A DNA stretch of 64,000 bases, from positions 407 to 64,406 of IMG/VR virus record IMGVR_UViG_3300034104_004892; one strand, written 5' to 3'. This document shows, piece by piece, positions 3,001 to 41,760 of the stretch. The notes under the pieces were generated by a model. That model was not told where the DNA came from. It saw nothing but the letters and a program-made list of their open reading frames with translations, and made no database searches. Numbering within the stretch: position 1 is the first letter of the stretch; every line of letters begins with the position of its first letter. A program made the translations under genes and the position numbers. Source of the stretch: a virus (Duplodnaviria > Caudoviricetes).

Positions 3001-6000
3001 CACCGGAGGCGTGTACGACTCTTCGGGATTATGCGGAGCCATGTTGCCTCGCAGCGACTTCATCTCGCGCATGTGTTGCTCAATCAAACGCTGCGCTTCG
3101 GGAGTAAATTCTGCGCCTGACCGCTCTCCAAATGCAGAGCCTTCTTCTCGCAATCCTGCGAGCCTGCGAGCCAGCCTTTTCACCACAGAGTTCTGATCTT
3201 TGATTGTGAGCCAATCCACAAGCGCGGCAGCGCCTCGAGGCTGATTGAAAAAGTAATTCCGATACAATCCGACCGCGTTGAAGTCTGCAAGCACCTCATC
3301 TCGCATCACTCGAACGATTCCGGGGATATCGTATTGCCCGGACGCCGCATCATACAGGCCCATGTTTTCAGCAACCTGCTCCGGGGTCAGGTTTGCATTT
3401 GATCGCCCGTATTTTTCCATGAACAAATCAACCAAGTGATTGTCGGAAAATATTCCCTCTGTTCGAGCGATCACGTTCCCCTGAGCGTCCTTTCGCTCCG
3501 TACCGAATAATTTTTCACGCAACCCAGAGGTTCGTTTCTTGTGCTCGTCAAAATTGTCTAACTGGTGACCAATCTCATGGGCATACACACTCAGGAATGC
3601 GTTGCCGTCGTGAATCATGTTTTTGATGATCACGTCCGAGTTTAGGGCGACAGTGCCCTTTTCCATTTTGGGATCCCAAACAACGTGCTCGCCAGTATTT
3701 CGGTCGATGCGTTGCCCGTCGGATTTGCGAACCGTATTTGTTTTTAAGTAGCTGGCGCCCTCAGCTTCCGACATGAACATTAGGCGCTGGTAATACTTTC
3801 GCTGCTCCGGAGACAGCATGTTGATTTCTTCAGGCCCCCATTGCGACATTGGCTTGGTTGGCAGCGGCCCGCCAAGTTCAGCCATCGTCCTCGAGTTTGA
3901 TTCTCCCAATTTGTCCAGCATTTCGCTGGTGGTCAGAAGTTCGACTTTTACGTTTTTGCCGGGCTCGAGAGAGCCTGATATGTGCGCGTCAATGTCCGCA
4001 AGACGATACCAAAATTGACGAGCAAACTCCTCTCGGCCTTCAGGGGTCGAAGCATTCTTTTTTGCAGCCTCGAGCCGGATCTGAGCCTTGTTTACCATCG
4101 CCTCATAAGCGCGAACCTCATCAGACTGCGTTTCAGACTCGCCCTGTTTTTCAACGGCCTTTTGGTAGTTCTGAGTGGCAGTTTCTAAATATTTTTCGGC
4201 AGCAGCAACTTCCGCTTCGATGTTTGCAAACACATCAAACCGCTGCGCAGCCTCCGGCGACATTGATGCCTTCAGCTTGTAAACTTGGTGGTCGTATTTT
4301 GACCGCTCGCGTTGCATCTGCGTTGGGTCTTTGCCAAGCGCCTTTTGAATAACTTGCGGCCCGGCAGCCCAAGCCCACCCTTCCATCATCGACTTAACAA
4401 ACCCTGCCGGGTCGTTTGAATCCATCAACCCAAGCGTGATGGCCATCGGAGTCGCATGCACAGCGTTCTTCGTGAAGTCTGACATGTGACCTGCAATCCA
4501 ATCAACGGCTTCCGGGCGAACGGTTGCAAGTCGAGACATCCACCCCCGGGTCGGGTCTTGAGCCAGTGCTCCAAACGTGCCAGTGATTCCTTTTGCGTTT
4601 CTGGCAGCCGCCCGGGATAAATCTGCAACAAATCGAGGGGATCCAAGCGCAATTGCTCCGAGGCCAGCGCCCATTGCTGCTCCCTTTACAGTGTCTTCAT
4701 CAAGAAAACTGCCAACCGTAGCGCCAGCGACTACTTTGCTGCCAAGGGATTTTGCGCCTTTTTGAAGCGCCCCCGGAACCCCGGCTTCCTCGAGAAATTC
4801 GCCAGTTCTTTCCGCCGCTTCTTTCAATACTCCAGCGCCGGGGATGTTTCCCAGTCCGCGCATAATTGCTCGCCCTGAGTCATCAATAACATTTGCCACT
4901 CGTTCGGCGCCGCGCCCAATCAGCCCCATTTGCGAAGCAGCTTGTGCTGATTTTTCTAATTTCTCGGCCCTTTTGGCAACCTGCGCTGCGGCCCACTGCT
5001 CTGCGGTCATGCCGCTCGCAAGCCTGCGAGTGACGTTTCCAAGTTCAAGCGTGCCTTTTATTGTTTTTTCGCCAAGGCTCCACAGGTTTGCAGCCCCAAT
5101 TCCCGGAATCGGAGTCAGTGCCGCCACCGCTTTTATGTCGGGATCCGCAGGATGATCCTTCATCCACTGCATGTAATCGGACATGACTTCATTTGTCCGA
5201 TCTTCAACCTGTTTTTCTTTAAACGCCTTGGCCTTTTCCCGATCTCCCTTGAACTCTGGGTGCAGATAGAGCAGCTCGTCAATCGACGGCCCGTTAAACG
5301 CCATAAGCGCCTTCACGGTCTCTTTTGATGCTGTCGCAAGCGAGCTTGGGTTTGTTAACGCATGACGAGCGTTTTCCATTTCGAGAGCGTCACGAGCCAT
5401 CCACCGCTCGCGACGTGTCTCTTCAGACATACCAAGGTTTGAAAGGATTCTGTCTACGTTGCTAAACCCGGTGGTTGTTCCTTTTTTGTAAAGATGCCCT
5501 ACTTCCGATGCAAGGTCTGTCCAGCCTTCAGCAAACGATCGAATATCGTTCAATTGCCGATTTTTCTGCGCTTCATTCAGTTCCTTTGCCCGTTCTGGGG
5601 TAGCGTTGTAAATTTCAGGATCAGGAGTGAAATCTCTAGCAAACTTGCCAACACCTTTGAGAAGTCCTTCAGATAGACCGCCAAAGCCAGCGGCCGCTTG
5701 CGCTACTCCGGTTCCAACATCGGACATTGTGATCGGACGCTTGGAGTATTCGTACGCGATCTCTTTTTGGCGCGGAGTTTTTTCGTGCCACGCAGGAAAC
5801 TGCGATATTTCCTCGGGGTCTTCAACCGAGTCAGCGATTGATTTTTGAGTATCGTTTATGTTTCCGTACCCAATTTCATTTAGCGCGGCCGCGACTGTGG
5901 TTGGCTTTTGTTGAACTCCAAGCGTCTCTTCAAGACTAGACTGCCATCCCCAATCGCGATCGAGAATTCCCGGCTTTTGCTCATCTGTTGCTTGAGCTTC

Positions 6001-6108
6001 TGGCTTTTGTTCTAGAGCAGCATTGTCGCCACCAATGTTTTTTAGCATCTCTTGGGATTCCCGAAGAGCTGCTGCAATGTCAAATTCACCAGTTGTTTCA
6101 GCAGTCAT
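1..6108 (-). CDS. Giant polyvalent internal virion/ejection protein, N-terminal part (2036 codons in window, runs off left edge)
   Basis: ATG at 6108 overlaps the upstream TAA (TAATG) and reads MTAETTGEFDIAAALRESQEM. No stop in the stretches translated by hand, and absence from the ORF track is consistent with no stop before the edge. Contains zincin HExxH (YAHEIGH ~3565-3585, downstream DEVLADF ~3280-3300), motifs typical of large polyvalent proteins (GLYSQL, GVKADEIRWSG, HMRLQD..IIEEAQSDLHQPGRKKGY, GGRGMKVFYDEILP) and a kinase-like start (GRKGAEHLV) at the edge. Confidence 0.85.
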   Translation of the reverse strand, partial: MTAETTGEFDIAAALRESQEMLKNIGGDNAALEQKPEAQATDEQKPGILDRDWGWQSSLEETLGVQQKPTTVAAALNEIGYGNINDTQKSIADSVEDPEEISQFPAWHEKTPRQKEIAYEYSKRPITMSDVGTGVAQAAAGFGGLSEGLLKGVGKFARDFTPDPEIYNATPERAKELNEAQKNRQLNDIRSFAEGWTDLASEVGHLYKKGTTTGFSNVDRILSNLGMSEETRRERWMARDALEMENARHALTNPSSLATASKETVKALMAFNGPSIDELLYLHPEFKGDREKAKAFKEKQVEDRTNEVMSDYMQWMKDHPADPDIKAVAALTPIPGIGAANLWSLGEKTIKGTLELGNVTRRLASGMTAEQWAAAQVAKRAEKLEKSAQAASQMGLIGRGAERVANVIDDSGRAIMRGLGNIPGAGVLKEAAERTGEFLEEAGVPGALQKGAKSLGSKVVAGATVGSFLDEDTVKGAAMGAGLGAIALGSPRFVADLSRAAARNAKGITGTFGALAQDPTRGWMSRLATVRPEAVDWIAGHMSDFTKNAVHATPMAITLGLMDSNDPAGFVKSMMEGWAWAAGPQVIQKALGKDPTQMQRERSKYDHQVYKLKASMSPEAAQRFDVFANIEAEVAAAEKYLETATQNYQKAVEKQGESETQSDEVRAYEAMVNKAQIRLEAAKKNASTPEGREEFARQFWYRLADIDAHISGSLEPGKNVKVELLTTSEMLDKLGESNSRTMAELGGPLPTKPMSQWGPEEINMLSPEQRKYYQRLMFMSEAEGASYLKTNTVRKSDGQRIDRNTGEHVVWDPKMEKGTVALNSDVIIKNMIHDGNAFLSVYAHEIGHQLDNFDEHKKRTSGLREKLFGTERKDAQGNVIARTEGIFSDNHLVDLFMEKYGRSNANLTPEQVAENMGLYDAASGQYDIPGIVRVMRDEVLADFNAVGLYRNYFFNQPRGAAALVDWLTIKDQNSVVKRLARRLAGLREEGSAFGERSGAEFTPEAQRLIEQHMREMKSLRGNMAPHNPEESYTPPVAKKDLIANKELSDYYLTDSGRFKTEMAAVVYDNDGKIIAEVVLQDPEAKEGSWFHHLDENGRSQITQGHGDGEMPPELGDLQIPMGGHLMSVVRLARDASGKPIENSNSETREVVERRSQAIRDAIDNSGDVGAPDRLRPVAPGSNTYRGTLTDAQIEAIRRLPNRVVPYFIKKKLYDVNNALKKGDGTRLLLDYATRIDARGRYVPFSPKIQDVVPIGMMFSSDGHFLVTTVSISRMMSKLDRWEAFMPIRLKPWNGSKGSFMEEFVGSYLENHQNGLPGSGFDPSTGEVVPGAKPLARNAAEAETKRNIFNDFLNMYDSNTVESNPDRTELPKLKLTREQREDERLVKLAKEQRKAEKSSDQNTMVRSLRLDSIMDLVESDLKKIPVDYYKAKHNMSLNVYEDSRAQRPVVEPESDMLRGMRLSMTQTPGGPRFSLRRSEQGLEETMVEPGLYSQLGRTLLQKMPAKTSANQVINILRGGGVKADEIRWSGIMPFIERMQSEKGNVTKQDIQNFLQDGYAAKFEEVDSPGKVYGKRYKMGDDQMNGIYDNYRETVLTHPSVDFVSENHYPDVSNYVAHMRLQDVYVKKPGTNKFLNGLIIEEAQSDLHQPGRKKGYYTNEQANRLVALKEQLQKALDERVEAFDGYIRHKTVSYDEANKATAKVDAVRDQLELLYNEVPALRPSQGLPQGSPEAPLSKDWALQLFKRALKDAVDSEKDFIGWPAGQIQADRYPGLQKPADNIVVTYAKGGYHLSATKGDAAVINKAGVKENELKELIGKELTESALKKLKESENQFTAAAYFSGDDLIIGGRGMKVFYDEILPSEIGKYVRQWGVKPEPSFTYNAGSGNALWKIDITPEMAESVRQGQALFSLKSGGESAPESINQEQYGQRDIREEARFSGAGRGRDPQEIGRPSGEIRGRAKSLEDSVRRADSEARQVRGESEGRRSSKSAKRAQDAALVDAAEQQGMLLDPSDFLNRWRESGGRKGAEHLVALNA
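111..329 (-). CDS. Overprinted 72-aa helical ORF nested in the polyvalent gene just upstream of the kinase domain (possible inhibitor/antitoxin)
   Basis: ATG with an A-rich leader and protein-like helical sequence; the host frame over the same interval is an R/G/S/E-rich low-complexity linker. Confidence 0.5.
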   Translation of the reverse strand: MDKETLEKRLALVERDAAEIHKRLGDLPARFAAVQKASKIPLEERIAKQDRFEANLRAGGHLNQQNAHKTRP

Positions 6109-8408
6109 TAATGCAAGGGTGTTTCGATAAATACGCCGCCTTGATCTCCTATTTGCGCCGCCTCTCTTAAGGCCTTAGCATATTCCTTTTCTGCTTCAAT
6201 GTCTTCTGCTGTTTTTGGCCGTGGATTTACTCTAAACTCTTGAATTAAATCAGCAAAATCTCGATCTGTCGGCCGTTCTGGCGGCAAATAAGCCTCCGGC
6301 CTGTCTTTATTTTTTGCAATTCTAGATGCAAGTATTTTTGCATCATGTTCAATTGTTTGTTTTTTGGACAGTAGTTTTTGCGCTTCAGCGGTAGGTGCCG
6401 ACTTTAACTGCGATTGAATCATCATCAATTCTGAGCCGAATTTTTTCATTTCTTCAGCCGCTTCTTTTTTAAGCATCATTTTTTGACCGATTTCTGTTCC
6501 GCCAGTAAAATAAGGATGCAGAGCGGCAGGATCTTCAAATCCTCGTTTATTAGCCCAGTACGTACGATATCGGGTGACTTCCTCGTTGGCTCTTTGAGCT
6601 TTTTCGTTGTAAACCTCGGCCCCAAGTCTGGCAATTTCATCGCGTTCTTCCTGAACAAGAATATCGCCCGTTAACTTGCCCTTGCTCCACGCTTCAGCTC
6701 GCGCCATCCACGGTCTTGATTTTTCAATTAAATGCAATTCTGCCTCGGTAGGAGTTGCACCCCGCGCCATTCGGGCAACAATTTGGAGCAAATCGTTATC
6801 AAAAAGAGTTTTGTTTTTGTTTTTTGGATCGCTGGCTTTTCCGTAAGACGCCAGCAAAAGTGGAATTGAAGCACTCGGGCCTCCTTTTTGCGCAAAATCT
6901 TGAACCAACGGGTTCCGGTTTACTTGCTGCTCGTGAGCCACAACAGCAGACTTCGCGACGCTTTCCTGCCGGAGCTTTAGCTGCTCGAGCTTAGGATCCA
7001 ATTTTGCTGGAGCGTCTTTGCGAATGTACTCCGGGTTTCGGTAAACTCCACGAGCGTCGGGCTTCCCGGGAGATACCATCCGGTATGGCATAGTAGGATC
7101 AGCTTCAATCATCTCAGCAAATCCAGCAGCGATGTTTCGATTTTTAAACGTAGCAGGCAAACTGGCAATCGACCCCGGTCTGTATTGAGGCGCAGCGACG
7201 GGTGCGGCAGCGGGTGCTGCGGCTGGCGCTGCGGCGTTCGGAGCTTGTTCTTGAGGTTGCGTCCGGCTTGACATTATTTGAGCCGCTTTAATTGCGTTTG
7301 CGCTTTTTGCGGTAACATCAGGTTCGCCGGGCGCAGGCATCGGCACTTGCGGCTGAGGCGCCTCCGAAGTTGCTGATGGAGGAGGCGTAAACGGCTCTAC
7401 CGGGGTCACGAATGAAGGCTCCATGCCCAACAGAATATTTTTAGGCGCAGCTACTGGCCGTCCTGCAAATAGTGATTGAGCCTCCGCTCTAAAATCTGGA
7501 GTTCCGGCTGTTTGCTGACCCGTAGTAATTGTTTGCGGAGGCAATAGCGCCCCCGGGCTCATTGTTGGTTGGCCGCCTCCCGGCTGCAATTGAGGTGGCT
7601 CGGGCGGTTTAATAAACGTAGCTCGCAACCCATCTAAAACTCCCGTTGCCGGAGACTCCAACGCGCCGGGTGCTGGCATCAATCCAAGTTCAAACTCGGG
7701 AACTTGTATTGAATCGAATTCTGGAATTTCTGAGAGTTGAGCAATTTGCTCATCTGTTGTCTTTGGAATTGCGAGATCTAAATCTTCAAAAATCGGAGGC
7801 GCCGTTAGCTGAGGAGTGGTGCGAATTGAAAATCCACTCGGAGACGCATCGCGGCCTTTCGCTTGATCAACGCTTGTTGGGGACGCATTTGCCCCGACGC
7901 CCGGAGCCTGCTCTTGAGCTGCTGCTGCTTTTTCAGCCGGGGTTGGCGCGTCGCTTGGTTTTTGATTTGTAGCGCCGCCGAAACGCTTCACCGTGTCATT
8001 CCAAGCATCGCCTACGTTGTCGTACCCATCCGGGCCGCCAGCTCGAGTTGCATCGATTCGAGCCTTGAGCATTTTCATGCGGTGCTCTTCCTTGGCCATT
8101 TGAAGACGCTCCTTGGCCTCATTCTCCCGGAAGGTTTGCTCGCGCTCCCATCGAGCCGCCGCTTCGGCGTCTTTTACGTCTTGCCGCTTGTCTCTGTAAT
8201 ACCCCTTGATGGCATCGGCAATTCCAGCCCCGGCAGCTAAAATGCCTTGAGAGTTGTCTCGAGGCGTCGGCACAACCCATGCGGGAAGCTCCCTAAATTG
8301 CAAAGGAGTTCCAACCCGGTACGGCTTAACCTGAGCCAGTGCCGGGAGATTTAAGTTTGGTGCAACTGCATTGAATTGCACCCCGCTCGGGTTGACGTAG
8401 GGAGGCAT
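6108..8408 (-). CDS. Internal virion / DNA ejection protein (766 aa)
   Basis: Long ORF with a Pro/Ala-rich disordered middle and helical C-terminus; lies between small ejection proteins and the giant protein. Confidence 0.75.
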   Translation of the reverse strand: MPPYVNPSGVQFNAVAPNLNLPALAQVKPYRVGTPLQFRELPAWVVPTPRDNSQGILAAGAGIADAIKGYYRDKRQDVKDAEAAARWEREQTFRENEAKERLQMAKEEHRMKMLKARIDATRAGGPDGYDNVGDAWNDTVKRFGGATNQKPSDAPTPAEKAAAAQEQAPGVGANASPTSVDQAKGRDASPSGFSIRTTPQLTAPPIFEDLDLAIPKTTDEQIAQLSEIPEFDSIQVPEFELGLMPAPGALESPATGVLDGLRATFIKPPEPPQLQPGGGQPTMSPGALLPPQTITTGQQTAGTPDFRAEAQSLFAGRPVAAPKNILLGMEPSFVTPVEPFTPPPSATSEAPQPQVPMPAPGEPDVTAKSANAIKAAQIMSSRTQPQEQAPNAAAPAAAPAAAPVAAPQYRPGSIASLPATFKNRNIAAGFAEMIEADPTMPYRMVSPGKPDARGVYRNPEYIRKDAPAKLDPKLEQLKLRQESVAKSAVVAHEQQVNRNPLVQDFAQKGGPSASIPLLLASYGKASDPKNKNKTLFDNDLLQIVARMARGATPTEAELHLIEKSRPWMARAEAWSKGKLTGDILVQEERDEIARLGAEVYNEKAQRANEEVTRYRTYWANKRGFEDPAALHPYFTGGTEIGQKMMLKKEAAEEMKKFGSELMMIQSQLKSAPTAEAQKLLSKKQTIEHDAKILASRIAKNKDRPEAYLPPERPTDRDFADLIQEFRVNPRPKTAEDIEAEKEYAKALREAAQIGDQGGVFIETPLH

Positions 8409-8411
8409 GGG

Positions 8412-9119
8412 TTAATAACCGCCAAATCTAAGGCCAGAAATACTCGGCATCAAATACTGACTGGCGCTCGTTACATTTTGATTGGAGCGTCGCGCTGCCG
8501 CCATTGCTGCCGCAGGGTTAATTCCAGCAGCCCCAACACCAGTCGATGGCCCAGTCTGAGGCGTGCTTGGAGTCTGATTGTACTGCGAAGTAGAGTCTCC
8601 GGCGTTGCTCGCGGTAGGTTTGGTTGCTGTCGTGCCCGTCGCAGACTGTGCCCCTGCTACAGATGATGTGGGCGTAAGCTGACCCACAGTAAGCTGTGAC
8701 TGCGGAGTAGTCTGAGCTGTCGCGGCCATTGCTGGATTCGGAGCTGTAGCTGTTAAACTTGGCGCTTGTTGTGTAGCGCCCGGCGTTGCGGCGCCAGTTG
8801 TATTTCCAGTGTCAGAAACATTAGTCTGCGTCTGACCAAGTTGACCCGACGGAGCAAGCTGAACCGCGCCAGTTAAATTTGCTTCCGGTATTGGTGGCGG
8901 TTTTGGCGCCTCCGGCTCCGCTGCTGTCGGAACAGTAGTTGTTACGGTTTTTGGCGGGTTGTTTTTGTTCCACTCAGAAATATAATCATCGTACCTGCGA
9001 CCCTTTGCCGGAGGTGGCGCCGTAGGATTTGCCCGTCGGAAACTTGCATATCTTTCCCTATCCGGAGAAAAAATAGTGCTGTTCCAGCCGCTAGAAAAAC
9101 TTCTTCGTCTTCCGCCCAT
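8412..9119 (-). CDS. Small ejection-type virion protein, MGG...SGLRFGGY
   Basis: 235-aa Thr/Ala/Pro-rich ORF tightly packed in the operon. Confidence 0.75.
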   Translation of the reverse strand: MGGRRRSFSSGWNSTIFSPDRERYASFRRANPTAPPPAKGRRYDDYISEWNKNNPPKTVTTTVPTAAEPEAPKPPPIPEANLTGAVQLAPSGQLGQTQTNVSDTGNTTGAATPGATQQAPSLTATAPNPAMAATAQTTPQSQLTVGQLTPTSSVAGAQSATGTTATKPTASNAGDSTSQYNQTPSTPQTGPSTGVGAAGINPAAAMAAARRSNQNVTSASQYLMPSISGLRFGGY

Positions 9120-9121
9120 AA

Positions 9122-9529
9122 TTAGGATCCTCCAAAGCGCAGCCCGGAAACAGACGGCGCCTGAAATGAGTTTGTGCTGCTGGTTTGTTGATTAGCAAGT
9201 GCTGCTGCCGCCGCTGATCCGCGAGGCCGCATTGTCGCTGCGTATGGCTTGTTCTTTGCCATGCCCATAACTTGGGGGCCGGATTCAGTTGCGGCTGGCC
9301 CTTCCGCCGTATTGATCGGCGCTGATGGCATTCCTTTAACGTCTGTTAAACTTGTATTTCCAGACATTGCATCGCCACCCCGAGGCCCGCTTTGAGGCGC
9401 ATCGAAAACAAGCCTGTTGCCTGTATCTACAGCGCGATTTGCAATCGTGTTTTGAACTGGTGGCGGCGGCGGCGGCACATACGGTGCAGGAGCCGGGGCG
9501 TCACCTCCTCTTCTTCCTCCTCCTCCCAT
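9122..9529 (-). CDS. Small ejection-type virion protein, MGGGG...SGLRFGGS
   Basis: ATG at 9529, 1 nt after the upstream stop, preferred over the TTG at 9544. Confidence 0.75.
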   Translation of the reverse strand: MGGGGRRGGDAPAPAPYVPPPPPPVQNTIANRAVDTGNRLVFDAPQSGPRGGDAMSGNTSLTDVKGMPSAPINTAEGPAATESGPQVMGMAKNKPYAATMRPRGSAAAAALANQQTSSTNSFQAPSVSGLRFGGS

Positions 9530-9530
9530 A

Positions 9531-10010
9531 TTATCGTCCTCCAAAGGTTATTCCCCCTACTTCTGGAAGGGAGAATTTGTTGCTTGTTGCTCTTTTTTCC
9601 ATAACAGGATTTTGCGTGGTTCCGCCAATCACATTTCCCATCGCAGGCGGAAGCATTGGGGCAGCAGCCCCAAGGTTGCCGTAGCGAACTTGGTTGGCTG
9701 CGTTGATATCATACCCTCCTCCGGTTACTCCAGAACCCATCCCCATAGACTCTTCTTGCGCCTGCGCGGCAGACTGAGCGTCGAGAGATTTTTGGTATTC
9801 TTGCATGCGTGCGAGGTCTTGCGATGCCGCCGTGTTGGCCTGCCTCATCCCAAGTTCGGCAGCGTTATTTTGAGCATCGACCATCGCTTTTCGCTGCGCT
9901 AAAGCGGCATCTTGAGCGGCTGTAGCCTGTTGCTCTCGCATTAACTCCATCGCCTTGATCATCGGAGTATAATCCGGTGGTGGCGGAGCTGATATTTTTG
10001 TGCCTCCCAT
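9531..10010 (-). CDS. Small ejection-type virion protein, MGGTKISAPPPPDY...GGITFGGR
   Basis: MGG..PPPPDY N-terminus and Gln/Ala-rich helix typical of podovirus ejection proteins. Confidence 0.8.
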   Translation of the reverse strand: MGGTKISAPPPPDYTPMIKAMELMREQQATAAQDAALAQRKAMVDAQNNAAELGMRQANTAASQDLARMQEYQKSLDAQSAAQAQEESMGMGSGVTGGGYDINAANQVRYGNLGAAAPMLPPAMGNVIGGTTQNPVMEKRATSNKFSLPEVGGITFGGR

Positions 10011-10028
10011 AATTTTAGTTTTTAATTG

Positions 10029-10901
10029 TTATTTTGGAACTGCGCCTTTTGCTGCTCCAGCGCCCTTTCCAGCACCACCTAAATACCCACCGAGAGCAGC
10101 GCCTCCAATCTGGGCGGCTGCTCCAATGTAAGCAGATTTCATTGCGTTTTTTTGATCAGCAGCATGTTGAGCGCCTTGGAACATGGCCTGCTGATAGTTT
10201 TGCCAGTCTTTCTTGTATTGTTCCGCCGCATTGTTTGCAGAGGCCATCATTTGATTGATCCAATCGGACGTGCCTTGCGCGGCGCCTTCGGTGCGCCCCA
10301 TGAGCGAATCTCGAAAGCCAGCGCGTTGCTGCATGCCCGATGCGGCAGCCTGTTGTTCGGCGCCAAGAATAGAACCAGTGTCCAGCCCGACATTGACCTG
10401 CGGGTTAGCCGCGAGCAATTGAGCGGCCGCTTGTTGGTTTGCGCGTTTCATCGCCATGCCTTCGATCGTGGATTGATCAAACAAGGCAGAGCGACCAATG
10501 GTTGAATCTTGCAGTCCGGATCCAAGATACTGAGCAATTCCTTTTGTTCTGGCCCACTCCTCCATCTGTTTTTGCCACCCACTGCCATTCAAGTCTTCGG
10601 CAATTTGCTCAGGAAGAATTTGCCGCAATTTAGCAAGCTGAGGGTTGTTTTGCTCCTCGAGTTTGCGCGTTTGAAAATCATTGATAGCCGCAATTTGAGC
10701 GGCTTTTGTGTTCATGCCGCTTTGCCCCCAAATGTCGGGAGACCAACTCTCCAGCGGCATTTGAGCGGCATACCCTAGCAGGCGCTGTTGTTGCTCCAAT
10801 TGCTGCCGCCCAAGTTCGGACTGCATCTTGAGCTGCGCCACCGACAACTGAGGGTCGGGACGACTAATAAAAGCTGATGGATCAACAGTTGATGCGCCCA
10901 T
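10029..10901 (-). CDS. DNA ejection/pilot-like protein (290 aa)
   Basis: Gln/Ala-rich helices and a C-terminal Gly/Ala hydrophobic segment (IGAAAQIGGAALGGYLGG). Confidence 0.75.
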   Translation of the reverse strand: MGASTVDPSAFISRPDPQLSVAQLKMQSELGRQQLEQQQRLLGYAAQMPLESWSPDIWGQSGMNTKAAQIAAINDFQTRKLEEQNNPQLAKLRQILPEQIAEDLNGSGWQKQMEEWARTKGIAQYLGSGLQDSTIGRSALFDQSTIEGMAMKRANQQAAAQLLAANPQVNVGLDTGSILGAEQQAAASGMQQRAGFRDSLMGRTEGAAQGTSDWINQMMASANNAAEQYKKDWQNYQQAMFQGAQHAADQKNAMKSAYIGAAAQIGGAALGGYLGGAGKGAGAAKGAVPK

Positions 10902-10902
10902 A

Positions 10903-11292
10903 TTAAGTTTTCGGCCAGTAAAGCTCTCGGTTGAGGCGGATTAAATTTAGCTTCTCCATGACCTCGTCGGTAAATTTGCCTTTGCCGTTGTCGTTGCTCG
11001 AAGGGACTGCAAGGTATCCGGGCGTCCCGGCAAGTTGAGTATGCGCACGCCAGTCCAGCATCACTCGCATGACGTCCCGGGGCGTCGTGTGCTCCGGATG
11101 GAAGCATGGATACACAGTCGGCACAAAAACGTGATCGCTGTATCCAAACAGCTTCTCGCCCTTGTAGTGAGCAAATACATTGATGGATGGATGCTCGATA
11201 ATAGTGTGGTCAAAAGTATCGGCAAAACGCTGTAGAGCTTCAAACTCTTCAGTGCCGTTATAGACTCGCTTGTAGGTGATCGATTGGCTCAT
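10903..11292 (-). CDS. Hypothetical 129-aa protein, possibly GNAT-like assembly factor
   Basis: Start MSQSITYKRV at 11292 (the track's 11910 start overlaps other genes); position between nozzle and ejection genes as for T7 gp13/P22 gp14. Confidence 0.55.
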   Translation of the reverse strand: MSQSITYKRVYNGTEEFEALQRFADTFDHTIIEHPSINVFAHYKGEKLFGYSDHVFVPTVYPCFHPEHTTPRDVMRVMLDWRAHTQLAGTPGYLAVPSSNDNGKGKFTDEVMEKLNLIRLNRELYWPKT

Positions 11293-11299
11293 TTGACGC

Positions 11300-11542
11300 T
11301 TAGAATAGTGTAACAGCCACCGAATCGTCAATTTTCGACTCAACCTTTGCGGCCTCGACCGCAATAATTTCAAGCCGGGTGTTCGAGTTGCCGCAAACAA
11401 CGCATGGCAGGCAAAGTCCGGTAGTGCGATTGTCGATTGGGATCGACGAGTACAGCGGGATGACGCCATCGTTTCCGTACGGGGAGACGAAAAGGTTTGG
11501 AAACTCCAAAACTGGCTCGGATGCTGTTTTGATGGAAGGCAT
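11300..11542 (-). CDS. Small Cys-containing protein (CLPCVVC)
   Basis: 80-aa ORF filling the gap after the nozzle gene. Confidence 0.65.
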   Translation of the reverse strand: MPSIKTASEPVLEFPNLFVSPYGNDGVIPLYSSIPIDNRTTGLCLPCVVCGNSNTRLEIIAVEAAKVESKIDDSVAVTLF

Positions 11543-11545
11543 ACC

Positions 11546-13690
11546 TTATGAGCTTGGGCCGCACGGGTTTGCGGATCTGTATTGAATAGCGGCAATACGG
11601 GCTTCTTCTTGAGCTTTTTGAAGCGCCAAATTGTCGGCTTCCGCTTGCGAAACGTAAGAGGTGGCGCTTGCCGTTGCCGTCGCCACGGCCGTCGGTTGCC
11701 CAAAACATGGCGATACGGCTTGGCTTGCCGTCTGAGTCGATTGCCAGACGGAAATCTCATTGCTTGGCTGCTCGATGCCCGCCGGGGGCAAATCGACCAA
11801 AATGCTCGCCCCGTCTTCTCCCAGAACGCAATATTGCGTTTCTGAAACAGTGACTCTCCCGGTCGATCTGTCTTGAAACGGCGTTTGGAACATTCGGACT
11901 GCTTCGACACCTAAACTGCCACACCACTCGATAAGAAGGCTAAACGCTTTGTCGATGTTGAGCAGAAAATCTGATTCGCAGCTTTTTTCTGCTGAATTTG
12001 GCTGAACAGCTTCTGTAATGAGACGTCGATATTGAGTCTGAATTATCCCAAGCGCCTTGATCTCATCATCAGAGTACGATGTGTCGTATTGGTACGGCTC
12101 TGTTGCCGCCAAAACGCGAGTGTTGAGAATGGGTTGATAGGTGCCCTTGGATCCTCGATACGATACCTTCATATCGACTGTTCCGGAAATTTGATTGCAA
12201 TCGACCTCAGCCCAATTCAATTGCTTGAGATCCATGCCATCGCCAAGCAATCCAGTTTCAGCTTGGCAATAAATGCGGTTTACGAATTCAGATGTTGATC
12301 CATCTTCTTTGATGGACAAGTAAGTGTCGTATCGCTGCGGGACAAATGCCTCCCAGATGTGGTTGTATGAGCCATCGTTCGTCTGCGCGTAATCAACTGA
12401 TGCGGCAAAAACTCGAGGCTGACCATTTACGACTCCAGACATCCATTCAATCGGCCTGATGCCAGTCCATACTCCGGCCCATGCAGGGCTTCGCGTCTGG
12501 TTCCATTCGGACGCCGCAGCGTAATCCAACACCATTGTGGCGCTATTTAAAGCCTCGTAATACGGAATGCTGCACAGTAAATAATTTTCAAACGAAATTG
12601 AGCAAATCCCTCCAATGCGAGACGACATCAGCCGCTTGGCTTTTGCCATTTCGACGTCCTTGTAAAGCACCTGTGACGATAAGTAGCTCGACGCTGCCAC
12701 GTCGGCGCTAACAAGGCCACCTTGTGAATACCACCACATCATTCCAGCTTGAAAACAAACAGATCTACCAGCAACGCATCCGATCGTCGGGTAAAGTACG
12801 TTTTGAAAGTTTGCGGTCGTTGCCCAAGCCGCTCTATCTAAGACTCCGCTGGCTAATGAGTAAGTTGCACGATCTGTAAAACAGTAAAGCCTACTGTCAT
12901 TGTTTTGGCCGACGTAGTCCTGCATGCAGGTTATCGGTCTAGGGAGACTGAAGTCTCCCCTGCCTGCTCCGGTAGTGCGTTCTTTCCATCCGAGAGGATC
13001 ACCAATATCGGACGCCGAAATGACGTTTCCATTTGCTACCCAAAGCCGATTCCCAGAATAAGCCATCCAATACCCGATCGGCATGTCTGTTGCTTGATAG
13101 CCTGTTTTGTCAGAACCATCCCAATAGCAAGGCTGATTGATTCCATCCTGCATCACAATCATCCGATAACTCGGAGTGATGGTTGTTCCCGTAGTCGTTG
13201 AAGTTTGCGCAGACCTTGTTGCTGTTGTGAAATTTACCATTTCAACGGTTGGATCCAGCTTTATTCCGACGAGCAAATAGTCGTTCCAATCTCGAGGTTG
13301 AGTTAATGGAAATGGAGAATAGTAAACCTTGCCGTTCACCGCAAAAACAAGGTACGACAACTCGAACTGCTCAGACTGATCCCCATCTACTGTATAGATC
13401 GTAGCTTTTTGCGTAATCCGAACTCCGGCTGCATTTTTCTCTGTTCCTGCGGCTGCATACTGCTTGTTCGCGTTAAACAAAATTGCGCCTTGGAAATTTC
13501 CAGCAGGCAAACTCAGCCGCATCGCAAAACCGGGGCGGGTCTGTGCAACTCCACCGCGCACGGTAATATTTTGAGCCCATTTAATTTGATCCTCTGGAAG
13601 CGTCCACGGATTTCGGATGCTGTTTACGCCATGCATCCATCCCGCAGACACTTTCTGGCTCATGCCAGAACTGATGTTCGGGCTTTTCAT
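11546..13690 (-). CDS. Tail nozzle / tail tubular protein B-like (P22 gp10/T7 gp12-like), 714 aa
   Basis: N-terminal GWMHGVN..QNITVRGG..TRPGF; propeller-like motifs (MAYSGNRLWVA..ISASDIGDP; WAGVWTGIRP); follows the adaptor gene. Confidence 0.75.
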   Translation of the reverse strand: MKSPNISSGMSQKVSAGWMHGVNSIRNPWTLPEDQIKWAQNITVRGGVAQTRPGFAMRLSLPAGNFQGAILFNANKQYAAAGTEKNAAGVRITQKATIYTVDGDQSEQFELSYLVFAVNGKVYYSPFPLTQPRDWNDYLLVGIKLDPTVEMVNFTTATRSAQTSTTTGTTITPSYRMIVMQDGINQPCYWDGSDKTGYQATDMPIGYWMAYSGNRLWVANGNVISASDIGDPLGWKERTTGAGRGDFSLPRPITCMQDYVGQNNDSRLYCFTDRATYSLASGVLDRAAWATTANFQNVLYPTIGCVAGRSVCFQAGMMWWYSQGGLVSADVAASSYLSSQVLYKDVEMAKAKRLMSSRIGGICSISFENYLLCSIPYYEALNSATMVLDYAAASEWNQTRSPAWAGVWTGIRPIEWMSGVVNGQPRVFAASVDYAQTNDGSYNHIWEAFVPQRYDTYLSIKEDGSTSEFVNRIYCQAETGLLGDGMDLKQLNWAEVDCNQISGTVDMKVSYRGSKGTYQPILNTRVLAATEPYQYDTSYSDDEIKALGIIQTQYRRLITEAVQPNSAEKSCESDFLLNIDKAFSLLIEWCGSLGVEAVRMFQTPFQDRSTGRVTVSETQYCVLGEDGASILVDLPPAGIEQPSNEISVWQSTQTASQAVSPCFGQPTAVATATASATSYVSQAEADNLALQKAQEEARIAAIQYRSANPCGPSS

Positions 13691-19455: not shown

Positions 19456-19456
19456 A

Positions 19457-19828: not shown

Positions 19829-19840
19829 ATTGTGTTTGGT

Positions 19841-28866: not shown

Positions 28867-30075
28867 TTACAGACCTGTTGCTGCGGTGCTGCAAGGAAGC
28901 GGCTGTCCATCAAACGGGCAGCGTTTGAATAGGATCGGCAGCACGTTCTGCGGACGCACGGGCTGAATGGCCCGGCTAATCTGGTAGATGTGCTGCCCAA
29001 AATCTCCGAAGAGGTTACAGTCGTTATCTCGAAACGCCGTCCACTCCAATTCGCCCATTGCAAGTTGCGGGGCAAATTTAAAACTGCCCTCCCCTGCATA
29101 GGACTCGGGCACAAGGCGTTTGAACCCTTCGCCCCCGATGACGAAACCCACCTCGTATGGGGCGTTGACCCAATCAGGATTGCGGCGCTGCGCAAACCCG
29201 TTGGTTACGGCCGTGGAGATGATGGGATTAACCAGAACGAGGTTGCCGTTGGAGTCAAACCCGGTGGATCTGAGCGGCTGCTGGTCGATCCCGAAAGCAA
29301 AACCACGATACCCCTGAAATTGGTAACCAGAGATGCTTTCTTCGCCGAGTTTGAACGAGCCAGCGGAGAGGTACAGAAGGTCTTCCTTGACGTCGGCGTC
29401 GTTGCGAATCTGTTCGATCGCATCGGCGCCAAGCATGACTTGGAAAAATTCTCCTTCTTTGCTGGAGAATGGTTCTGCCAACATTTCTTCCCGGAGGAAA
29501 GTTCCGCACCGATACAGGGTCTTGAAGTTCAAAGGCCCGTCAGGAAGCGTCTGCGCGAACTTCGTGTTGATGTTCTGCATGTCGCCCGTCAGGTTGGCGC
29601 CAAAGCTTGCGGTTGTGTTGACCACATACTTCACGCCGGATTGGATGAGATATTGGTAGCGAATGTCCGCGTTAATGATCTGCAAGATGGTCTTCTCGAG
29701 GGAGACCTGTGCTTGCAAGTACGAGCCCTTGAACGCCGTCCTCGCTTGTTTAACGCAAACGCGAGGGCCAGCCCCACGGAGCGTCTGCAAGCTGAACTGG
29801 TATTCAGTGCTGCCGACTTGGTCAGGAGCAGCCCCAACGCCGCACAGCGTCTGGTCTTCGACGAAAACGGGAGCTGCAAGTGATGCGACGGGAACCGCCA
29901 TTTCCTCGACGACGGAACGCACCACGTCGGAGACGTTTGGAATCGTTCCCCCATCGATCGAGTTAATGTAGGGTGATTTCCGGGCGAGGACTTTCGCGAT
30001 CTGCCCGATGATCCTGTTAACATCCTTGCTTGCAAAGTTTTGGATGGTTGCTAGTGGAATACAATCGTTTGCCAT
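28867..30075 (-). CDS. Major capsid protein (402 aa)
   Basis: Size, position downstream of the portal and scaffold, biased codon usage, AAACC-repeat leader and downstream hairpin. Confidence 0.8.
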   Translation of the reverse strand: MANDCIPLATIQNFASKDVNRIIGQIAKVLARKSPYINSIDGGTIPNVSDVVRSVVEEMAVPVASLAAPVFVEDQTLCGVGAAPDQVGSTEYQFSLQTLRGAGPRVCVKQARTAFKGSYLQAQVSLEKTILQIINADIRYQYLIQSGVKYVVNTTASFGANLTGDMQNINTKFAQTLPDGPLNFKTLYRCGTFLREEMLAEPFSSKEGEFFQVMLGADAIEQIRNDADVKEDLLYLSAGSFKLGEESISGYQFQGYRGFAFGIDQQPLRSTGFDSNGNLVLVNPIISTAVTNGFAQRRNPDWVNAPYEVGFVIGGEGFKRLVPESYAGEGSFKFAPQLAMGELEWTAFRDNDCNLFGDFGQHIYQISRAIQPVRPQNVLPILFKRCPFDGQPLPCSTAATGL

Positions 30076-40913: not shown

Positions 40914-41020
40914 CTCCACGGATCAGCCCAACGCCACAACAGCGCCATCCCAAAGACCATCCCGGCAAGCGCCCCGGCAAGCTGCACGTCGGCCAGCGAC
41001 GCTGCGTTGTGGATGATCAT
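40910..41020 (-). CDS. 36-aa membrane peptide
   Basis: MIIHNAASLADVQLAGALAGMVFGMALLWRWADPWR; ATGA overlaps on both sides. Confidence 0.45.
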   Translation of the reverse strand: MIIHNAASLADVQLAGALAGMVFGMALLWRWADPWR

Positions 41021-41757: not shown

Positions 41758-41760
41758 AGG

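What the first reader, a model, noticed from the sequence alone, without database searches (positions are those of the whole stretch)
8412..10010. Three consecutive ejection proteins begin MGG and end with a shared ubiquitin/Atg8-like tail, ...P-x-[VI]-x-G-[LI]-x-F-G-G-X-stop
Seen: the C-termini are QYLMPSISGLRFGGY, SFQAPSVSGLRFGGS and KFSLPEVGGITFGGR, while the rest of the proteins are unrelated low-complexity sequence. All three start Met-Gly-Gly. Established: GG-X or FG-X ends are the precursor form of ubiquitin-like modifiers, trimmed by one residue before conjugation. Inference: this is a processing, conjugation or packaging/ejection signal. Caveat: in two genes GG is encoded GGAGGA and could double as an SD for the next gene. 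The third uses GGCGGT, and the motif extends about 10 residues upstream.
Basis: partly seen in the sequence, partly recalled or inferred. Interest (0 to 1): 0.75.

Follow-up and report, generated by a model that had tools for sequence, protein, structure and literature searches.

The report
Shared end-tags on phage ejection proteins
Three neighbouring small, floppy proteins of an uncultured short-tailed phage carry the same 16-residue tail and the same Met-Gly-Gly start, a signature kept across well over a hundred related phage fragments, and it most likely acts as a shared address label for proteins that ride inside the virus particle rather than as a ubiquitin-like tag.

Summary
The three minus-strand genes (9531-10010, 9122-9529, 8412-9119) start MGG and end N/S-x-[FY]-x-x-P-x-x-x-G-[LI]-x-F-G-G-X-stop. 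Without the tail they are unrelated low-complexity sequence.

- **Spread:** the tail recurs at the C-terminus of 1-4 tandem genes in relatives found through a neighbouring gene and in 119+ viral contigs found by pattern. It is never internal.
- **Shine-Dalgarno (SD) caveat:** GG is kept with all four Gly codons. GGAGG is enriched only where the next start codon is close, so this is a protein motif with an SD overlay.
- **Context:** a T7/P22-type internal-virion-protein module. The order is nozzle-like gene, GNAT-fold IVP-A-like gene, a 290-aa protein, the three tagged genes, a 766-aa protein, then a giant protein.
- **Ubiquitin/Atg8 reading:** not supported. I found no fold, no E1/E2/ligase, and the candidate ATP-grasp gene is in only 4 of 10 complete tag-bearing genomes.
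- **Best reading (about 0.4):** a shared C-terminal docking peptide for small ejection proteins. The partner is unknown.

The family has no Pfam or PHROG entry and no informative name. The scan flagged the same tags on other genomes (e1-6285547, e1-6277053).

The parts
9531..10010 (-). Gene A, 159 aa. It has an MGG start, then SAPPPP, a Q/A-rich probably helical middle, and the C-terminal tag NKFSLPEVGGITFGGR.
   Evidence: Homologues at 31-85% identity appear and in all 4 distant complete genomes (32-41% identity).
9122..9529 (-). Gene B, 135 aa. It has an MGGGGRRGG start, a P/A/G-rich low-complexity body, and the tag NSFQAPSVSGLRFGGS.
8412..9119 (-). Gene C, 235 aa. It has an MGGRRRS start, an A/T/P/S-rich low-complexity body, and the tag SQYLMPSISGLRFGGY.
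9531..9581 (-). C-terminal 16-residue tag of A plus its stop codon. The GGAGGA Gly codons lie 8 nt before the ATG of B.
9122..9172 (-). C-terminal tag of B plus its stop codon. The GGAGGA Gly codons lie before the ATG of C.
8412..8462 (-). C-terminal tag of C plus its stop codon. The Gly codons are GGCGGT, and the next gene (766 aa) starts 3 nt after the stop.
10903..11292 (-). 129-aa GNAT-fold protein. It is the positional and fold equivalent of T7 gp13 / IVP-A, and it lacks the usual Q/R-x-x-G-x-G/A CoA motif.
   Evidence: 97 distinct homologues in the fetched loci. Invariant H29, Y51, H65, D73, R122, E123. AF2 pLDDT 86. Every row of the listing I saw from Foldseek on PDB (ranks 1-50) is a GNAT-fold protein; the best is 4crz_B, E 4.9e-4, TM 0.61. 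PMC4819975 section 9 reports that T7 IVP-A matches an acetyltransferase.
10029..10901 (-). 290-aa protein in the IVP-B position. It starts MGA here and MGG in relatives. It has a G/A-rich C-terminus here; 3 of 4 distant relatives end in a hydrophobic G/A/I tail.
   Evidence: The IVP-B assignment rests on synteny only.
11546..13690 (-). 714-aa nozzle-like (tubular tail B) protein, immediately upstream of the module.
   Evidence: 54-61% identity in distant genomes. An Atlas look-alike cluster (score 0.95) has 17% of members carrying PF11134, the P22 gp10 family; this is a lead only. The name is inferred from that lead and from synteny.
6108..8408 (-). 766-aa protein in the IVP-C position. Its start codon lies 3 nt after the stop of gene C.
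   Evidence: tblastn found no homologue in 4 distant genomes, although a 582-587 aa gene occupies the same place there.
1..6108 (-). Giant protein of more than 2035 aa in the IVP-D position. It runs off the window.
   Evidence: 26-28% identity over 949-1445 aa in distant genomes.
28867..30075 (-). Major capsid protein (HK97 fold). It is the most conserved protein of the clade and one candidate receptor for the tag.
   Evidence: 73-81% identity. AF2 pLDDT 80. Foldseek best hit is the N4 capsid 9e99_A, E 9.3e-12, with 334 PDB matches at E<=0.001.

Best explanation
A, B and C are small, largely unstructured internal-virion (ejection) proteins of a divergent podovirus. They sit inside a T7/P22-type IVP module. 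Their only conserved parts are two short terminal signals.

The C-terminal 16-mer is N-x-F-x-[LMV]-P-x-x-x-G-[LI]-x-F-G-G-X-COOH. I read it as a shared docking or targeting peptide. Its two hydrophobic pairs (F-x-L and L-x-F) flank a P-x-x-x-G turn, and a fixed GG-X-carboxylate end would plug into one conserved site on a conserved virion component. That component could be the portal/core, the nozzle-adaptor channel, the capsid interior, or the IVP-A assembly factor. Docking there would bring one to four different paralogues into the particle and position them to leave first.

Because several paralogues must fit one site, the signal would be evolutionarily frozen while the bodies drift. The GG codons are secondarily recruited as the SD of the next gene when that gene starts within a few bases.

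The MGG start is a separate, module-wide mark. It is also present on the IVP-B-like protein and on another small protein that lack the tail.

**Shown:** the motif, its strict terminal position, its protein-level selection, its spread, and the synteny.

**Inferred:** that the proteins are virion-borne, that the tail binds something, and what it binds.
For: 1. **Protein-level selection.** In 188 tag-bearing ORFs, N(-16) is 85% conserved although the search pattern did not ask for it, and 153 of 188 start MGG. In alignment A1 the mean major-residue frequency is 0.64 in the tail, 0.96 in the first three columns and 0.36 in the middle.
2. **Strict position.** 167 of 171 distinct matches have exactly one residue after GG, 2 have none, 2 have two, and none is internal. 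In the set found through the neighbouring gene rather than by pattern, the counts are 26, 2 and 2 of 30.
3. **Not an SD artefact.** GG is invariant. GGAGG occurs in 97 of 147 tails whose next ATG lies within 6 nt, but in only 7 of 32 tails where it lies further away. In the 32 rows printed for the far set, many of the downstream genes are preceded by a GAAAGGA-like stretch (my reading of the list, not a count). Only 5 of 40 window genes have any SD-like 4-mer upstream, and two of those are B and C.
4. **Variable copy number.** 1-4 tandem genes per genome carry one invariant tail on unrelated bodies. This is the pattern expected of a shared address label.
5. **Context.** The order is nozzle-like gene, GNAT-fold IVP-A-like gene, 290-aa protein, tagged genes, 766-aa protein, giant protein. 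This matches the T7 IVP operon as described in PMC4819975 section 9. The nearest named Atlas clusters to A are P22_gp7 (0.80) and T7 gp6.7 (0.77). These are leads only.
6. **Structural precedent.** T7 gp7.3 is 99 aa, starts MGKK and is basic and disordered. It is held by its C-terminal loop (residues 84-98) between two nozzle subunits. gp6.7 loops glue the portal barrel, gp14 and gp15 together (PMC11784390, passages and Discussion read).
7. **T7 gp6.7 family.** It keeps ...S-[AV]-F-G-G-K-K at its C-terminus. 44 of 70 members have [FLIVMY]GG within 4 residues of the end.
8. **Restricted to phages.** Of 41 pattern hits in 185,579 species' genomes, 1 is a clear family member, on a 4.3-kb MAG contig.
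Against: - No partner has been identified and no direct evidence of binding exists.
- No virion proteomics or structure exists for this clade, so 'virion-borne' rests on synteny and weak look-alikes.
- The tail does not match the T7 gp7.3 anchor sequence, and A, B and C do not hit PF17570.
- In T7 the C-terminal 29 residues of gp6.7, which include AFGGKK, were not resolved in either state. That parallel therefore says nothing about function.
- A fixed single, freely variable last residue is also what a leaving group in trimming or transpeptidation would look like.
- Near-invariance across phages whose capsid proteins differ by 20-27% could equally reflect an enzyme or a conserved host target.
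- 83 of 117 pattern-found loci carry a PAPS-reductase-like PP-loop gene, and 84 of 117 carry a CxxCxxCC gene. In the two loci I inspected, L116 and L123, these genes lie between the IVP-B-like gene and the first tagged gene. This hints at chemistry rather than mere docking, although the window and G008 lack both genes.
Confidence: 0.4

Rival explanations
1. The tail is a host-directed short linear motif. After ejection, the floppy proteins thread into the envelope and the tail binds a conserved host envelope component. This would resemble the binding epitopes in the disordered translocation domains of colicins (that comparison is recalled, not tested).
For: The motif is near-invariant while every phage protein drifts. 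The bodies are disordered and rich in A, Q, G, S, T and N, with no Cys, His or Trp. T7 gp6.7 and gp14 re-assemble into an outer-membrane channel after ejection.
Against: The host is unknown. The only hints are a Chitinophagaceae-binned contig and sparse SD use. No host partner is proposed and none was tested. Several paralogues sharing one phage site would explain the invariance equally well.
Confidence: 0.15
2. The tail is the recognition handle for the adjacent GNAT-fold IVP-A-like factor. That factor is an assembly chaperone or modifying enzyme that loads or modifies the small IVPs but is not itself kept in the virion.
For: The IVP-A-like gene is conserved (53-57% identity in distant genomes) and lies within a few kb of the tagged genes in the loci I examined, where 97 distinct homologues were found. 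It has invariant His, Asp, Tyr, Arg and Glu residues suggestive of an active or binding site and a GNAT fold. [quoted passage not shown]
Against: IVP-A-like genes also exist in T7, P22 and epsilon15. I checked only some T7 proteins for the tail and did not check P22 or epsilon15. The IVP-B-like protein shares the MGG start but lacks the tail, so MGG fits a module-wide enzyme mark better than the tail does. Binding was not tested.
Confidence: 0.12
3. The tail is a processing or ligation substrate. A protease or transpeptidase acts at GG|X, with X as the leaving group. The N-terminal Gly-Gly exposed after Met removal, or a lysine, may be the acceptor, giving trimmed or covalently joined ejection proteins.
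For: Exactly one variable residue follows GG in 167 of 171 cases. N-terminal MGG and C-terminal GG-X occur together in 153 of 188 proteins. MGG starts are concentrated in this block: 5 of 5, 5 of 6, 4 of 6, 4 of 5 and 3 of 3 MGG-start ORFs in five genomes. Many relatives place an adenylating-type PP-loop protein and a CxxCxxCC protein in the block.
Against: No protease or transpeptidase was found that is common to the clade. The PP-loop and CxxCxxCC genes are absent from the window and from G008, where the motif is intact. The LPxTxG-like stretch lacks the membrane anchor of sortase substrates. The three genes lie in three different reading frames, so there is no read-through polyprotein.
Confidence: 0.1
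4. The tail is a ubiquitin/Atg8/Pup-like modifier tail. X is trimmed and the exposed GG is conjugated to targets by a phage ATP-grasp or ligase system.
For: The GG-X terminus is present. Pup shows that a disordered modifier is possible (recalled).
Against: There is no Ubl family or fold. Q at the last position is only 5%, and E is not among the six commonest residues there, so the Pup end GGQ/GGE does not fit. No E1, E2, DUB or Pup-ligase family appears among 40 scanned window proteins. The 426-aa gene is in 4 of 10 complete tag-bearing genomes. Thirteen further conserved residues upstream of GG have no Ubl counterpart.
Confidence: 0.04
5. The tail is a by-product of translational coupling. 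The conserved tail merely encodes the SD and spacer for the next gene.
For: GGAGG lies 7-8 nt before the next ATG in A to B and B to C. It is enriched when the next start is close (97 of 147).
Against: GG is kept with non-SD codons (GGCGGG in 31 tails, GGTGGA in 17) and also when the next gene is far away. The conserved residues extend 13 positions upstream of GG. The window phage rarely uses SD at all (5 of 40 genes).
Confidence: 0.02

Closest known systems
T7 gp7.3 (small ejected protein with a C-terminal anchor loop)
   Same: Small size, a Met-Gly start, a basic and disordered N-terminal part, and a structured contact made only by the last ~15 residues. That contact docks in the nozzle/adaptor channel, and the protein is ejected first.
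   Different: The anchor sequences are not similar (KKSLSVARSSGGGINI versus NxFxxPxxxGLxFGGx). The gene lies elsewhere in T7. It is a single gene rather than 1-4 paralogues. Docking of the present tail is not shown.
T7 gp6.7 family (PF17570, fourth core protein)
   Same: A small, mostly unstructured internal protein that glues the core and then lines the ejected channel. Its family keeps a C-terminal ...S-[AV]-F-G-G-K-K. It is the second-nearest named Atlas cluster to A, at 0.77, which is a lead only.
   Different: A, B and C give no PF17570 hit. The gp6.7 tail lacks the N-x-F-x-x-P-x-x-x-G-L part and ends in 2-3 basic residues. gp6.7 starts MCF, not MGG. The role of its tail is unknown because it is unresolved in the cryo-EM maps.
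Encapsulin cargo targeting peptides
   Same: A short C-terminal peptide shared by several unrelated cargo proteins. It has hydrophobic residues spaced by Gly or small residues (native PLTVGSLRRGG, NTGGDLGIRK; consensus DGSLGIGSLKG) and binds the inner face of an HK97-fold shell (PMC7925596, passages read). The phage capsid protein here also has the HK97 fold.
   Different: The motif is different: there is no GSL and no basic end. Here the distance to the carboxylate is fixed. Binding to the capsid protein is not shown.
T4 internal proteins with a shared capsid-targeting sequence
   Same: Tandem genes for small internal proteins share one terminal targeting peptide and are ejected with the DNA.
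   Different: The T4 signal is N-terminal and is cleaved by the prohead protease. No such protease was identified here.
Ubiquitin-like modifier precursors (Ub, Atg8, Pup)
   Same: They end in GG or FG plus a short dispensable extension.
   Different: There is no beta-grasp fold, no conjugation enzymes and no Pup-type GGQ/GGE end. A long conserved motif upstream of GG has no counterpart.

Membership tests
Ubiquitin/Atg8-like modifiers | Beta-grasp fold or a family match | tested here: not met
   No Pfam family at E<=0.1 apart from two sub-threshold chance hits. The Atlas model of A has pTM 0.33 and none of its 10 listed structural neighbours is a ubiquitin-like family. The bodies are low-complexity sequence.
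Ubiquitin/Atg8-like modifiers | C-terminal GG (or FG) followed by a short removable extension | tested here: met
   FGG-X in A, B and C. 167 of 171 relatives have exactly one residue after GG. Removal of X is not testable here.
Ubiquitin/Atg8-like modifiers | Cognate activating/conjugating/deconjugating enzymes that are encoded or co-occur | tested here: not met
   Forty window proteins scanned with Pfam gave no E1, E2, JAB or Ulp match. The 426-aa 'ATP-grasp' candidate is in 4 of 10 complete tag-bearing genomes.
Pup (prokaryotic ubiquitin-like protein) | A disordered protein ending in GGQ or GGE, with a PafA/Dop ligase | tested here: not met
   The last residue is A 20%, S 20%, V 19%, T 14%, Q 5%. 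No Pup-ligase family was found.
T7-like gp6.7 (PF17570) | Match to the family profile | tested here: not met
   No PF17570 hit for A, B or C at E<=0.1. There is only an Atlas feature score of 0.77, below the level the tool treats as more than a lead.
Podovirus internal-virion-protein (IVP) module, T7 gp13-gp16 type | A gene block directly downstream of the tubular-tail-B/nozzle gene, opened by a small acetyltransferase-like IVP-A gene | tested here: met
   The GNAT-fold 129-aa gene follows the 714-aa nozzle-like gene. The criterion is taken from PMC4819975 section 9. The nozzle identity itself is only a lead.
Podovirus internal-virion-protein (IVP) module, T7 gp13-gp16 type | Sequence homology of IVP-B, -C and -D to the T7/P22 proteins | not tested
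   No PHROG or Pfam hit for the 290-aa, 766-aa and giant proteins. No profile-profile comparison with T7 gp14-16 was run. The assignment rests on size and order.
Podovirus internal-virion-protein (IVP) module, T7 gp13-gp16 type | Proteins present in the virion and ejected on infection | not testable with these tools
   This needs virion proteomics of a cultured relative. tblastn found none among 50,697 phage records.
Encapsulin-type cargo targeting peptide | A C-terminal peptide shared by unrelated cargo proteins | tested here: met
Encapsulin-type cargo targeting peptide | Binds the luminal face of the HK97-fold shell protein | not testable with these tools
   This needs a loading assay or cryo-EM. 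No usable computational result was obtained.
Sortase substrates (LPXTG sorting signal) | LPXTG followed by a hydrophobic segment and a basic tail | tested here: not met
   The tail reads [LMV]-P-x-x-x-G, one residue longer than LPXTG. It ends 7 residues later with no hydrophobic segment.

The most novel reading that the evidence does not exclude
The MGG start and the GG-X end are the two handles of a virion-protein chemistry system carried in the ejection module. The conserved GNAT-fold IVP-A-like protein would act on the N-terminal glycine exposed after Met removal, for example by acylation. This would be analogous to N-myristoylated internal entry proteins such as picornavirus VP4, and N-myristoyltransferase is itself a GNAT (both points recalled). 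The GG-X carboxyl end would be trimmed or activated, and in most relatives the in-block PP-loop ATPase and CxxCxxCC protein would help. The result would be lipid-modified or covalently head-to-tail-joined ejection proteins that build the trans-envelope conduit.
Probability: 0.07. Interest if true: 0.9.

Novelty: new variant of a known kind. Interest (0 to 1): 0.55.

Why it matters
How podoviruses recruit their small, disordered ejection proteins into the particle, and in what order they release them, is poorly understood. In T7 these proteins were placed in cryo-EM maps only in 2024.

This finding gives a sharply defined, experimentally tractable signal. It is 16 residues long, strictly terminal, and shared by 1-4 paralogues. 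It is spread through a large uncultured clade of roughly 60-65-kb phages with terminal repeats. It is paired with a second, module-wide Met-Gly-Gly mark and with the enigmatic GNAT-fold IVP-A.

If the tail is a loading or docking peptide, it would be a natural handle for packaging foreign cargo into phage heads. It would also be a phage-side parallel to encapsulin cargo loading. If it is instead a substrate for trimming or ligation, it would be a new kind of virion-protein chemistry.

The finding also draws attention to the conserved but unexplained ...AFGGKK end of the T7 gp6.7 family.

Tried and rejected
**Family and database searches**
- PHROGs and Pfam on A, B, C and neighbours gave no family. 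PHROGs on ten larger tag-bearing proteins from relatives gave only weak hits to families of unknown function.
- megablast of window 8000-20000 against 50,697 phage records found nothing. tblastn of the 714-aa protein, A and a typical relative (L103) against the same records also found nothing, so I found no cultured relative there.
- A PDB sequence search with the portal-sized 799-aa, the 402-aa, the 714-aa and the 129-aa proteins gave nothing significant.
- BLASTP of the 129-aa protein against T7 gp13 gave E 0.022 over 21 residues, which is not evidence of homology.
- A profile search of 5.8 billion proteins with alignment A1 returned 78 hits among 8000 scored candidates. All are unnamed or 'hypothetical protein', and none has a Pfam domain. 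A cluster look-up of four NCBI-sourced hits gave no names or accessions.

**Literature**
- I found no description of this motif. My searches were by topic and protein name: gp6.7/gp7.3, ejection proteins/podophage, encapsulin targeting peptides and gp13/acetyltransferase.
- I ran no literature search on the motif itself, so 'not in print' is not established.
Fig. S8 of PMC11784390, which shows the gp7.3-nozzle contacts, could bear on the comparison.

**Genome-contig pattern scan**
- The scan gave 41 hits, and 30 tail-like frames were listed. By my own hand estimate (not a tool result), a 34-bit pattern in about 6e11 bases should give some 70 chance hits, so 41 is about chance level.
- Only L281 is a clear family member.
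- One further 306-aa frame, in L285 (...FGIPEPPGLDFGGS), was not followed up.

**Complex prediction**
- I ran one job: the capsid protein (alignment A3) with the last 50 residues of A (alignment A1, residues 110-159).
- The verdict was 'no answer' (score 0.00, mark 0.32, controls not run).
Portal, nozzle, IVP-A, scaffold and self-association could not be tried because the cap is one job.

**Ideas considered and dropped**
- Outer-membrane beta-signal: the spacing of G and aromatic residues does not fit.
- PDZ-type C-terminal ligand: the last residue is not conserved.
- Read-through polyprotein: the three genes are in three different frames.


Full report
**What is there.** The window is almost all of a 64,406-bp virus record with direct terminal repeats. 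All long ORFs lie on the minus strand.
- A: 9531-10010, 159 aa, MGGTKIS...NKFSLPEVGGITFGGR.
- B: 9122-9529, 135 aa from its ATG, MGGGGRR...NSFQAPSVSGLRFGGS.
- C: 8412-9119, 235 aa, MGGRRRS...SQYLMPSISGLRFGGY.

Among 1251 stop-to-stop frames of at least 30 aa, only these three end in FGG-x. From the phage's own composition, the chance of P-x4-G-[LI]-x-F-G-G-x at a given end is about 1e-7. The bodies are rich in A, G, P, T, S and Q. Once the last 16 residues are removed they are not detectably related to each other: the best E is 0.22, against 4e-5 for B/C with tails.

**Is it conserved, and at which level?** I fetched 39 related viral loci through the neighbouring 714-aa gene (59-76% identity). 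This route does not depend on the motif. Downstream of that gene, 1-4 tandem ORFs per locus end in the same way.

In this unbiased set (window plus 39 loci), 23 of 40 sources hold at least one such ORF. I did not check why the other 17 show none; several of them are short contigs. The set contains 30 distinct tagged ORFs, of which 26 have exactly one residue after GG, 2 have none and 2 have two.

Many contigs held two or three hits a few hundred bases apart. The same pattern in 596 Gb of bacterial and archaeal genomes gave 41 hits. Only one of these is a clear family member, on a 4.3-kb contig binned to a Chitinophagaceae MAG. The motif is therefore a phage feature.

Over 188 distinct tagged proteins the consensus is N-x-F-x-[LMV]-P-[SNK]-x-x-G-[LI]-x-F-G-G-X. 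N(-16) is 85% conserved even though the pattern did not specify it. The last residue is free (A, S, V, T, Q, M and others). The median length is 171 aa, and Cys, His and Trp are virtually absent. With a relaxed expression, all 171 distinct matches lie within two residues of the stop, and none is internal.

**The SD caveat.** GG is invariant but is written with all four Gly codons. The commonest pairs are GGAGGA (70), GGCGGG (31), GGAGGC (18) and GGTGGA (17). GGAGG occurs in 97 of 147 tails whose next ATG is within 6 nt of the stop, but in only 7 of 32 where the next gene is further off. In the 32 rows printed for that far set, many downstream genes are preceded by a GAAAGGA-like stretch (my reading of the list, not a count).

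In the window itself only 5 of 40 genes have any SD-like 4-mer upstream, and two of those are B and C. The amino acids are therefore the selected feature. Codon choice is tuned for translational coupling where that is useful.

**The N-terminal mark.** 153 of 188 tagged proteins start MGG. In five whole genomes the ORFs that start MGG are concentrated in this block: 5 of 5, 5 of 6, 4 of 6, 4 of 5 and 3 of 3. They include proteins without the tail:
- the 290-aa protein's homologues, which start MGG in relatives and MGA in the window;
- another protein of 137-167 aa.

MGG is therefore a second, module-wide signal that is partly independent of the tail. One caution: the public gene call for A starts at Met17 (143 aa). 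However, residues 1-16 are conserved as protein in the 157-160-aa homologues.

**Context.** In transcription order the block is:
- the 714-aa protein;
- a small 80-aa ORF;
- a 129-aa protein;
- a 290-aa protein;
- A, B and C;
- a 766-aa protein;
- a giant protein of more than 2035 aa.

The 714-aa protein's Atlas look-alikes include a cluster in which 17% of members carry the P22 gp10 family PF11134. This is a lead only.

The 129-aa protein has 97 distinct homologues in the fetched loci and invariant His, Tyr, Asp, Arg and Glu residues. It folds with pLDDT 86. Every row of the Foldseek PDB listing I saw (ranks 1-50) is a GNAT-fold protein, and the best is PanZ 4crz_B at E 4.9e-4 and TM 0.61. 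I do not see the usual CoA-binding Q/R-x-x-G-x-G/A motif in the alignment.

Hardies et al. (PMC4819975, section 9 read in full) describe exactly this layout. The T7 IVP operon A-B-C-D lies directly downstream of tubular tail B. IVP-A (gp13) is acetyltransferase-like by HHpred, is required for morphogenesis and is not kept in the virion. IVP-C and IVP-D are too divergent to recognise by sequence. That matches what I see:
- The 766-aa protein has no tblastn match in four distant complete genomes, although a gene of 582-587 aa sits in its place.
- The 402-aa protein is 73-81% identical across those genomes. It has the HK97 fold (best hit N4 capsid, E 9e-12) and is the major capsid protein.

The nearest named Atlas clusters to A are P22_gp7 (0.80) and T7 gp6.7 (0.77). 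Both are below the level that counts as more than a lead. 'Ejection proteins' is therefore a reasonable label based on synteny. It is not shown.

**The ubiquitin-like reading.**
- A, B and C match no family.
- The Atlas model of A is non-globular (pTM 0.33).
- The last residue is rarely Q, and E is not among its six commonest residues, so Pup does not fit.
- Forty window proteins scanned with Pfam gave no E1, E2, JAB, Ulp or Pup-ligase match.
It is present in only 4 of 10 complete (96-100%) tag-bearing genomes.
- Its 238-aa neighbour matches Erv1/Alr (E 2e-6), not a peptidase.

I therefore rate conjugation as unlikely.

**What else sits in the block in relatives.** In 83 of 117 pattern-found loci there is a PAPS-reductase-like PP-loop protein with an SGGKDS motif (PF01507, 22.3 bits against a cutoff of 22.5). 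In 84 of 117 there is a CxxCxxCC protein (PF03692, E 1e-7). In the two loci I inspected, L116 and L123, both lie between the 290-aa homologue and the first tagged gene.

Seven of the 39 loci found through the 714-aa gene carry the PP-loop gene, and three of the 39 carry the CxxCxxCC gene. The window and G008 have neither gene, yet keep the tail. These enzymes therefore cannot be required for whatever the tail does. They do keep a chemical reading alive.

Two earlier notes of this scan on other genomes (e1-6285547, e1-6277053) flagged the same tags together with these enzymes. I confirmed the genes and the GNAT fold, not their proposed function.

**Best mechanism.** The pattern is one frozen terminal peptide on a variable number of otherwise unrelated, disordered paralogues inside an IVP module. 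This is what a shared address or docking peptide looks like.

T7 offers direct structural precedents (PMC11784390, passages and Discussion read):
- gp7.3 is 99 aa, starts MGKK, and is basic and disordered. It is held only by its C-terminal loop (residues 84-98), wedged between two nozzle subunits.
- gp6.7 uses short loops to tie the portal barrel, gp14 and gp15 together.

The gp6.7 family also keeps a C-terminal ...S-[AV]-F-G-G-K-K. 44 of 70 members have [FLIVMY]GG within four residues of the end. That stretch is unresolved in the maps, so it is a parallel and not an explanation.

Encapsulin targeting peptides are the analogue on an HK97-fold shell: native PLTVGSLRRGG and NTGGDLGIRK, and consensus DGSLGIGSLKG (PMC7925596 passages).

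I put docking or targeting at about 0.4. The partner is open, with the portal/core, the nozzle-adaptor channel, the capsid interior and IVP-A all possible. The rivals are:
- a host-directed linear motif (0.15);
- a handle for IVP-A (0.12);
- trimming or transpeptidation with X as the leaving group (0.10);
- Ubl-like conjugation (0.04);
- a pure SD artefact (0.02).

**Limits.**
- I found no cultured relative, virion proteome or structure for this clade.
- The pattern-found loci are biased toward the positions written into the pattern and toward a TAA stop. I therefore give the unbiased counts separately.
- The names portal (799 aa), scaffold (419 aa; Q/E/A-rich and helical by eye), nozzle and IVP-B/C/D are inferred from order, size and conservation. 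They are not from family matches.
- The chance estimates for the DNA pattern are my own arithmetic.

Noticed in passing
window 10903-11292 (-): A 129-aa protein with a GNAT fold (AF2 pLDDT 86; every row of the Foldseek PDB listing seen, ranks 1-50, is a GNAT-fold protein). It lacks the usual CoA motif and has invariant H29, Y51, H65, D73, R122 and E123. It is the positional and fold equivalent of T7 gp13 / IVP-A. It is a candidate enzyme or chaperone for the MGG-tagged proteins downstream.
   Followed up: partly
window 10029-10901 (-); G001, G003, G004, G008: ORFs that start MGG are concentrated in the ejection module. They include proteins without the C-terminal tag: the 290-aa protein's homologues, three of four of which end in a hydrophobic G/A/I stretch, and a 137-167-aa protein that ends ...GVGKMYGM in two of the genomes.
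   Followed up: partly
L123 3389-4514 (-); L116 1939-3552 (+): In 83-84 of 117 pattern-found loci there is a PAPS-reductase-like PP-loop protein (SGGKDS) and a CxxCxxCC (PF03692) protein. In L116 and L123 they lie between the 290-aa homologue and the first tagged gene. Both genes are absent from the window.
   Followed up: partly
L159 565-831 (T7 gene 6.7); P0236-P0304: The T7 gp6.7 family keeps a C-terminal ...SIRKS[AV]FGGKK. T7 gp13 ends ...ITKGG, and gp7.3 starts MGKK and ends ...SSGGGINI. Glycine-rich ends recur on small T7 internal proteins.
   Followed up: partly
window 10011-10035: Gene A has no SD. It is preceded by an A-rich leader ...AAAAACTAAAATT-ATG. Similar ...CTAAC..ACTAAAATT/ACTACGATT leaders precede the first MGG gene in several relatives.
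   Followed up: no
window 9531-10010 (-): The public gene call for the window's own protein A is 143 aa and starts at Met17 (P0011). Conservation of residues 1-16 in homologues favours the upstream MGG start.
   Followed up: partly
window 57886-58602 (-): The C-terminal half of the 238-aa protein matches Erv1/Alr sulfhydryl oxidase (PF04777, E 2e-6, above cutoff). No peptidase family was found for it.
   Followed up: partly
window 11300-11542 (-): An 80-aa ORF between the nozzle-like gene and the GNAT-fold gene carries C-x-x-C-x-x-C (CLPCVVCG). It has homologues in nearly all the fetched loci (p134 query).
   Followed up: no
window 40001-42000: A stretch of 65% G+C against roughly 50-55% elsewhere. 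It overlaps the 626-aa ORF 39039-40919, which is 63-65% identical in distant relatives and by size and conservation may be the large terminase. That assignment was not tested.
   Followed up: no
L281 (4.3-kb contig binned to a Chitinophagaceae MAG): This is the only clear family member among 41 pattern hits in prokaryote genomes. Together with the rarity of SD sequences (5 of 40 genes), it is a weak hint at a Bacteroidota host.
   Followed up: no
window 33237-34496 and 34745-37144 (-); The scaffold-like protein's C-terminus is conserved (...DRLKMNSxDAIDxGLDEALGG in relatives). The portal-sized protein ends in a conserved ...[IV]A[TA]P[PG][RK]P[PV]TA[AGR]. These may be further terminal docking motifs.
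   Followed up: no
window 32223-33233 (-): A 336-aa protein lies between the scaffold-like gene and the capsid region. It is conserved at 36-46% identity in distant genomes and has a DHD motif and a GGGCMLVHRR stretch reminiscent of GT-A glycosyltransferases (recalled). It has no Pfam hit.
   Followed up: no
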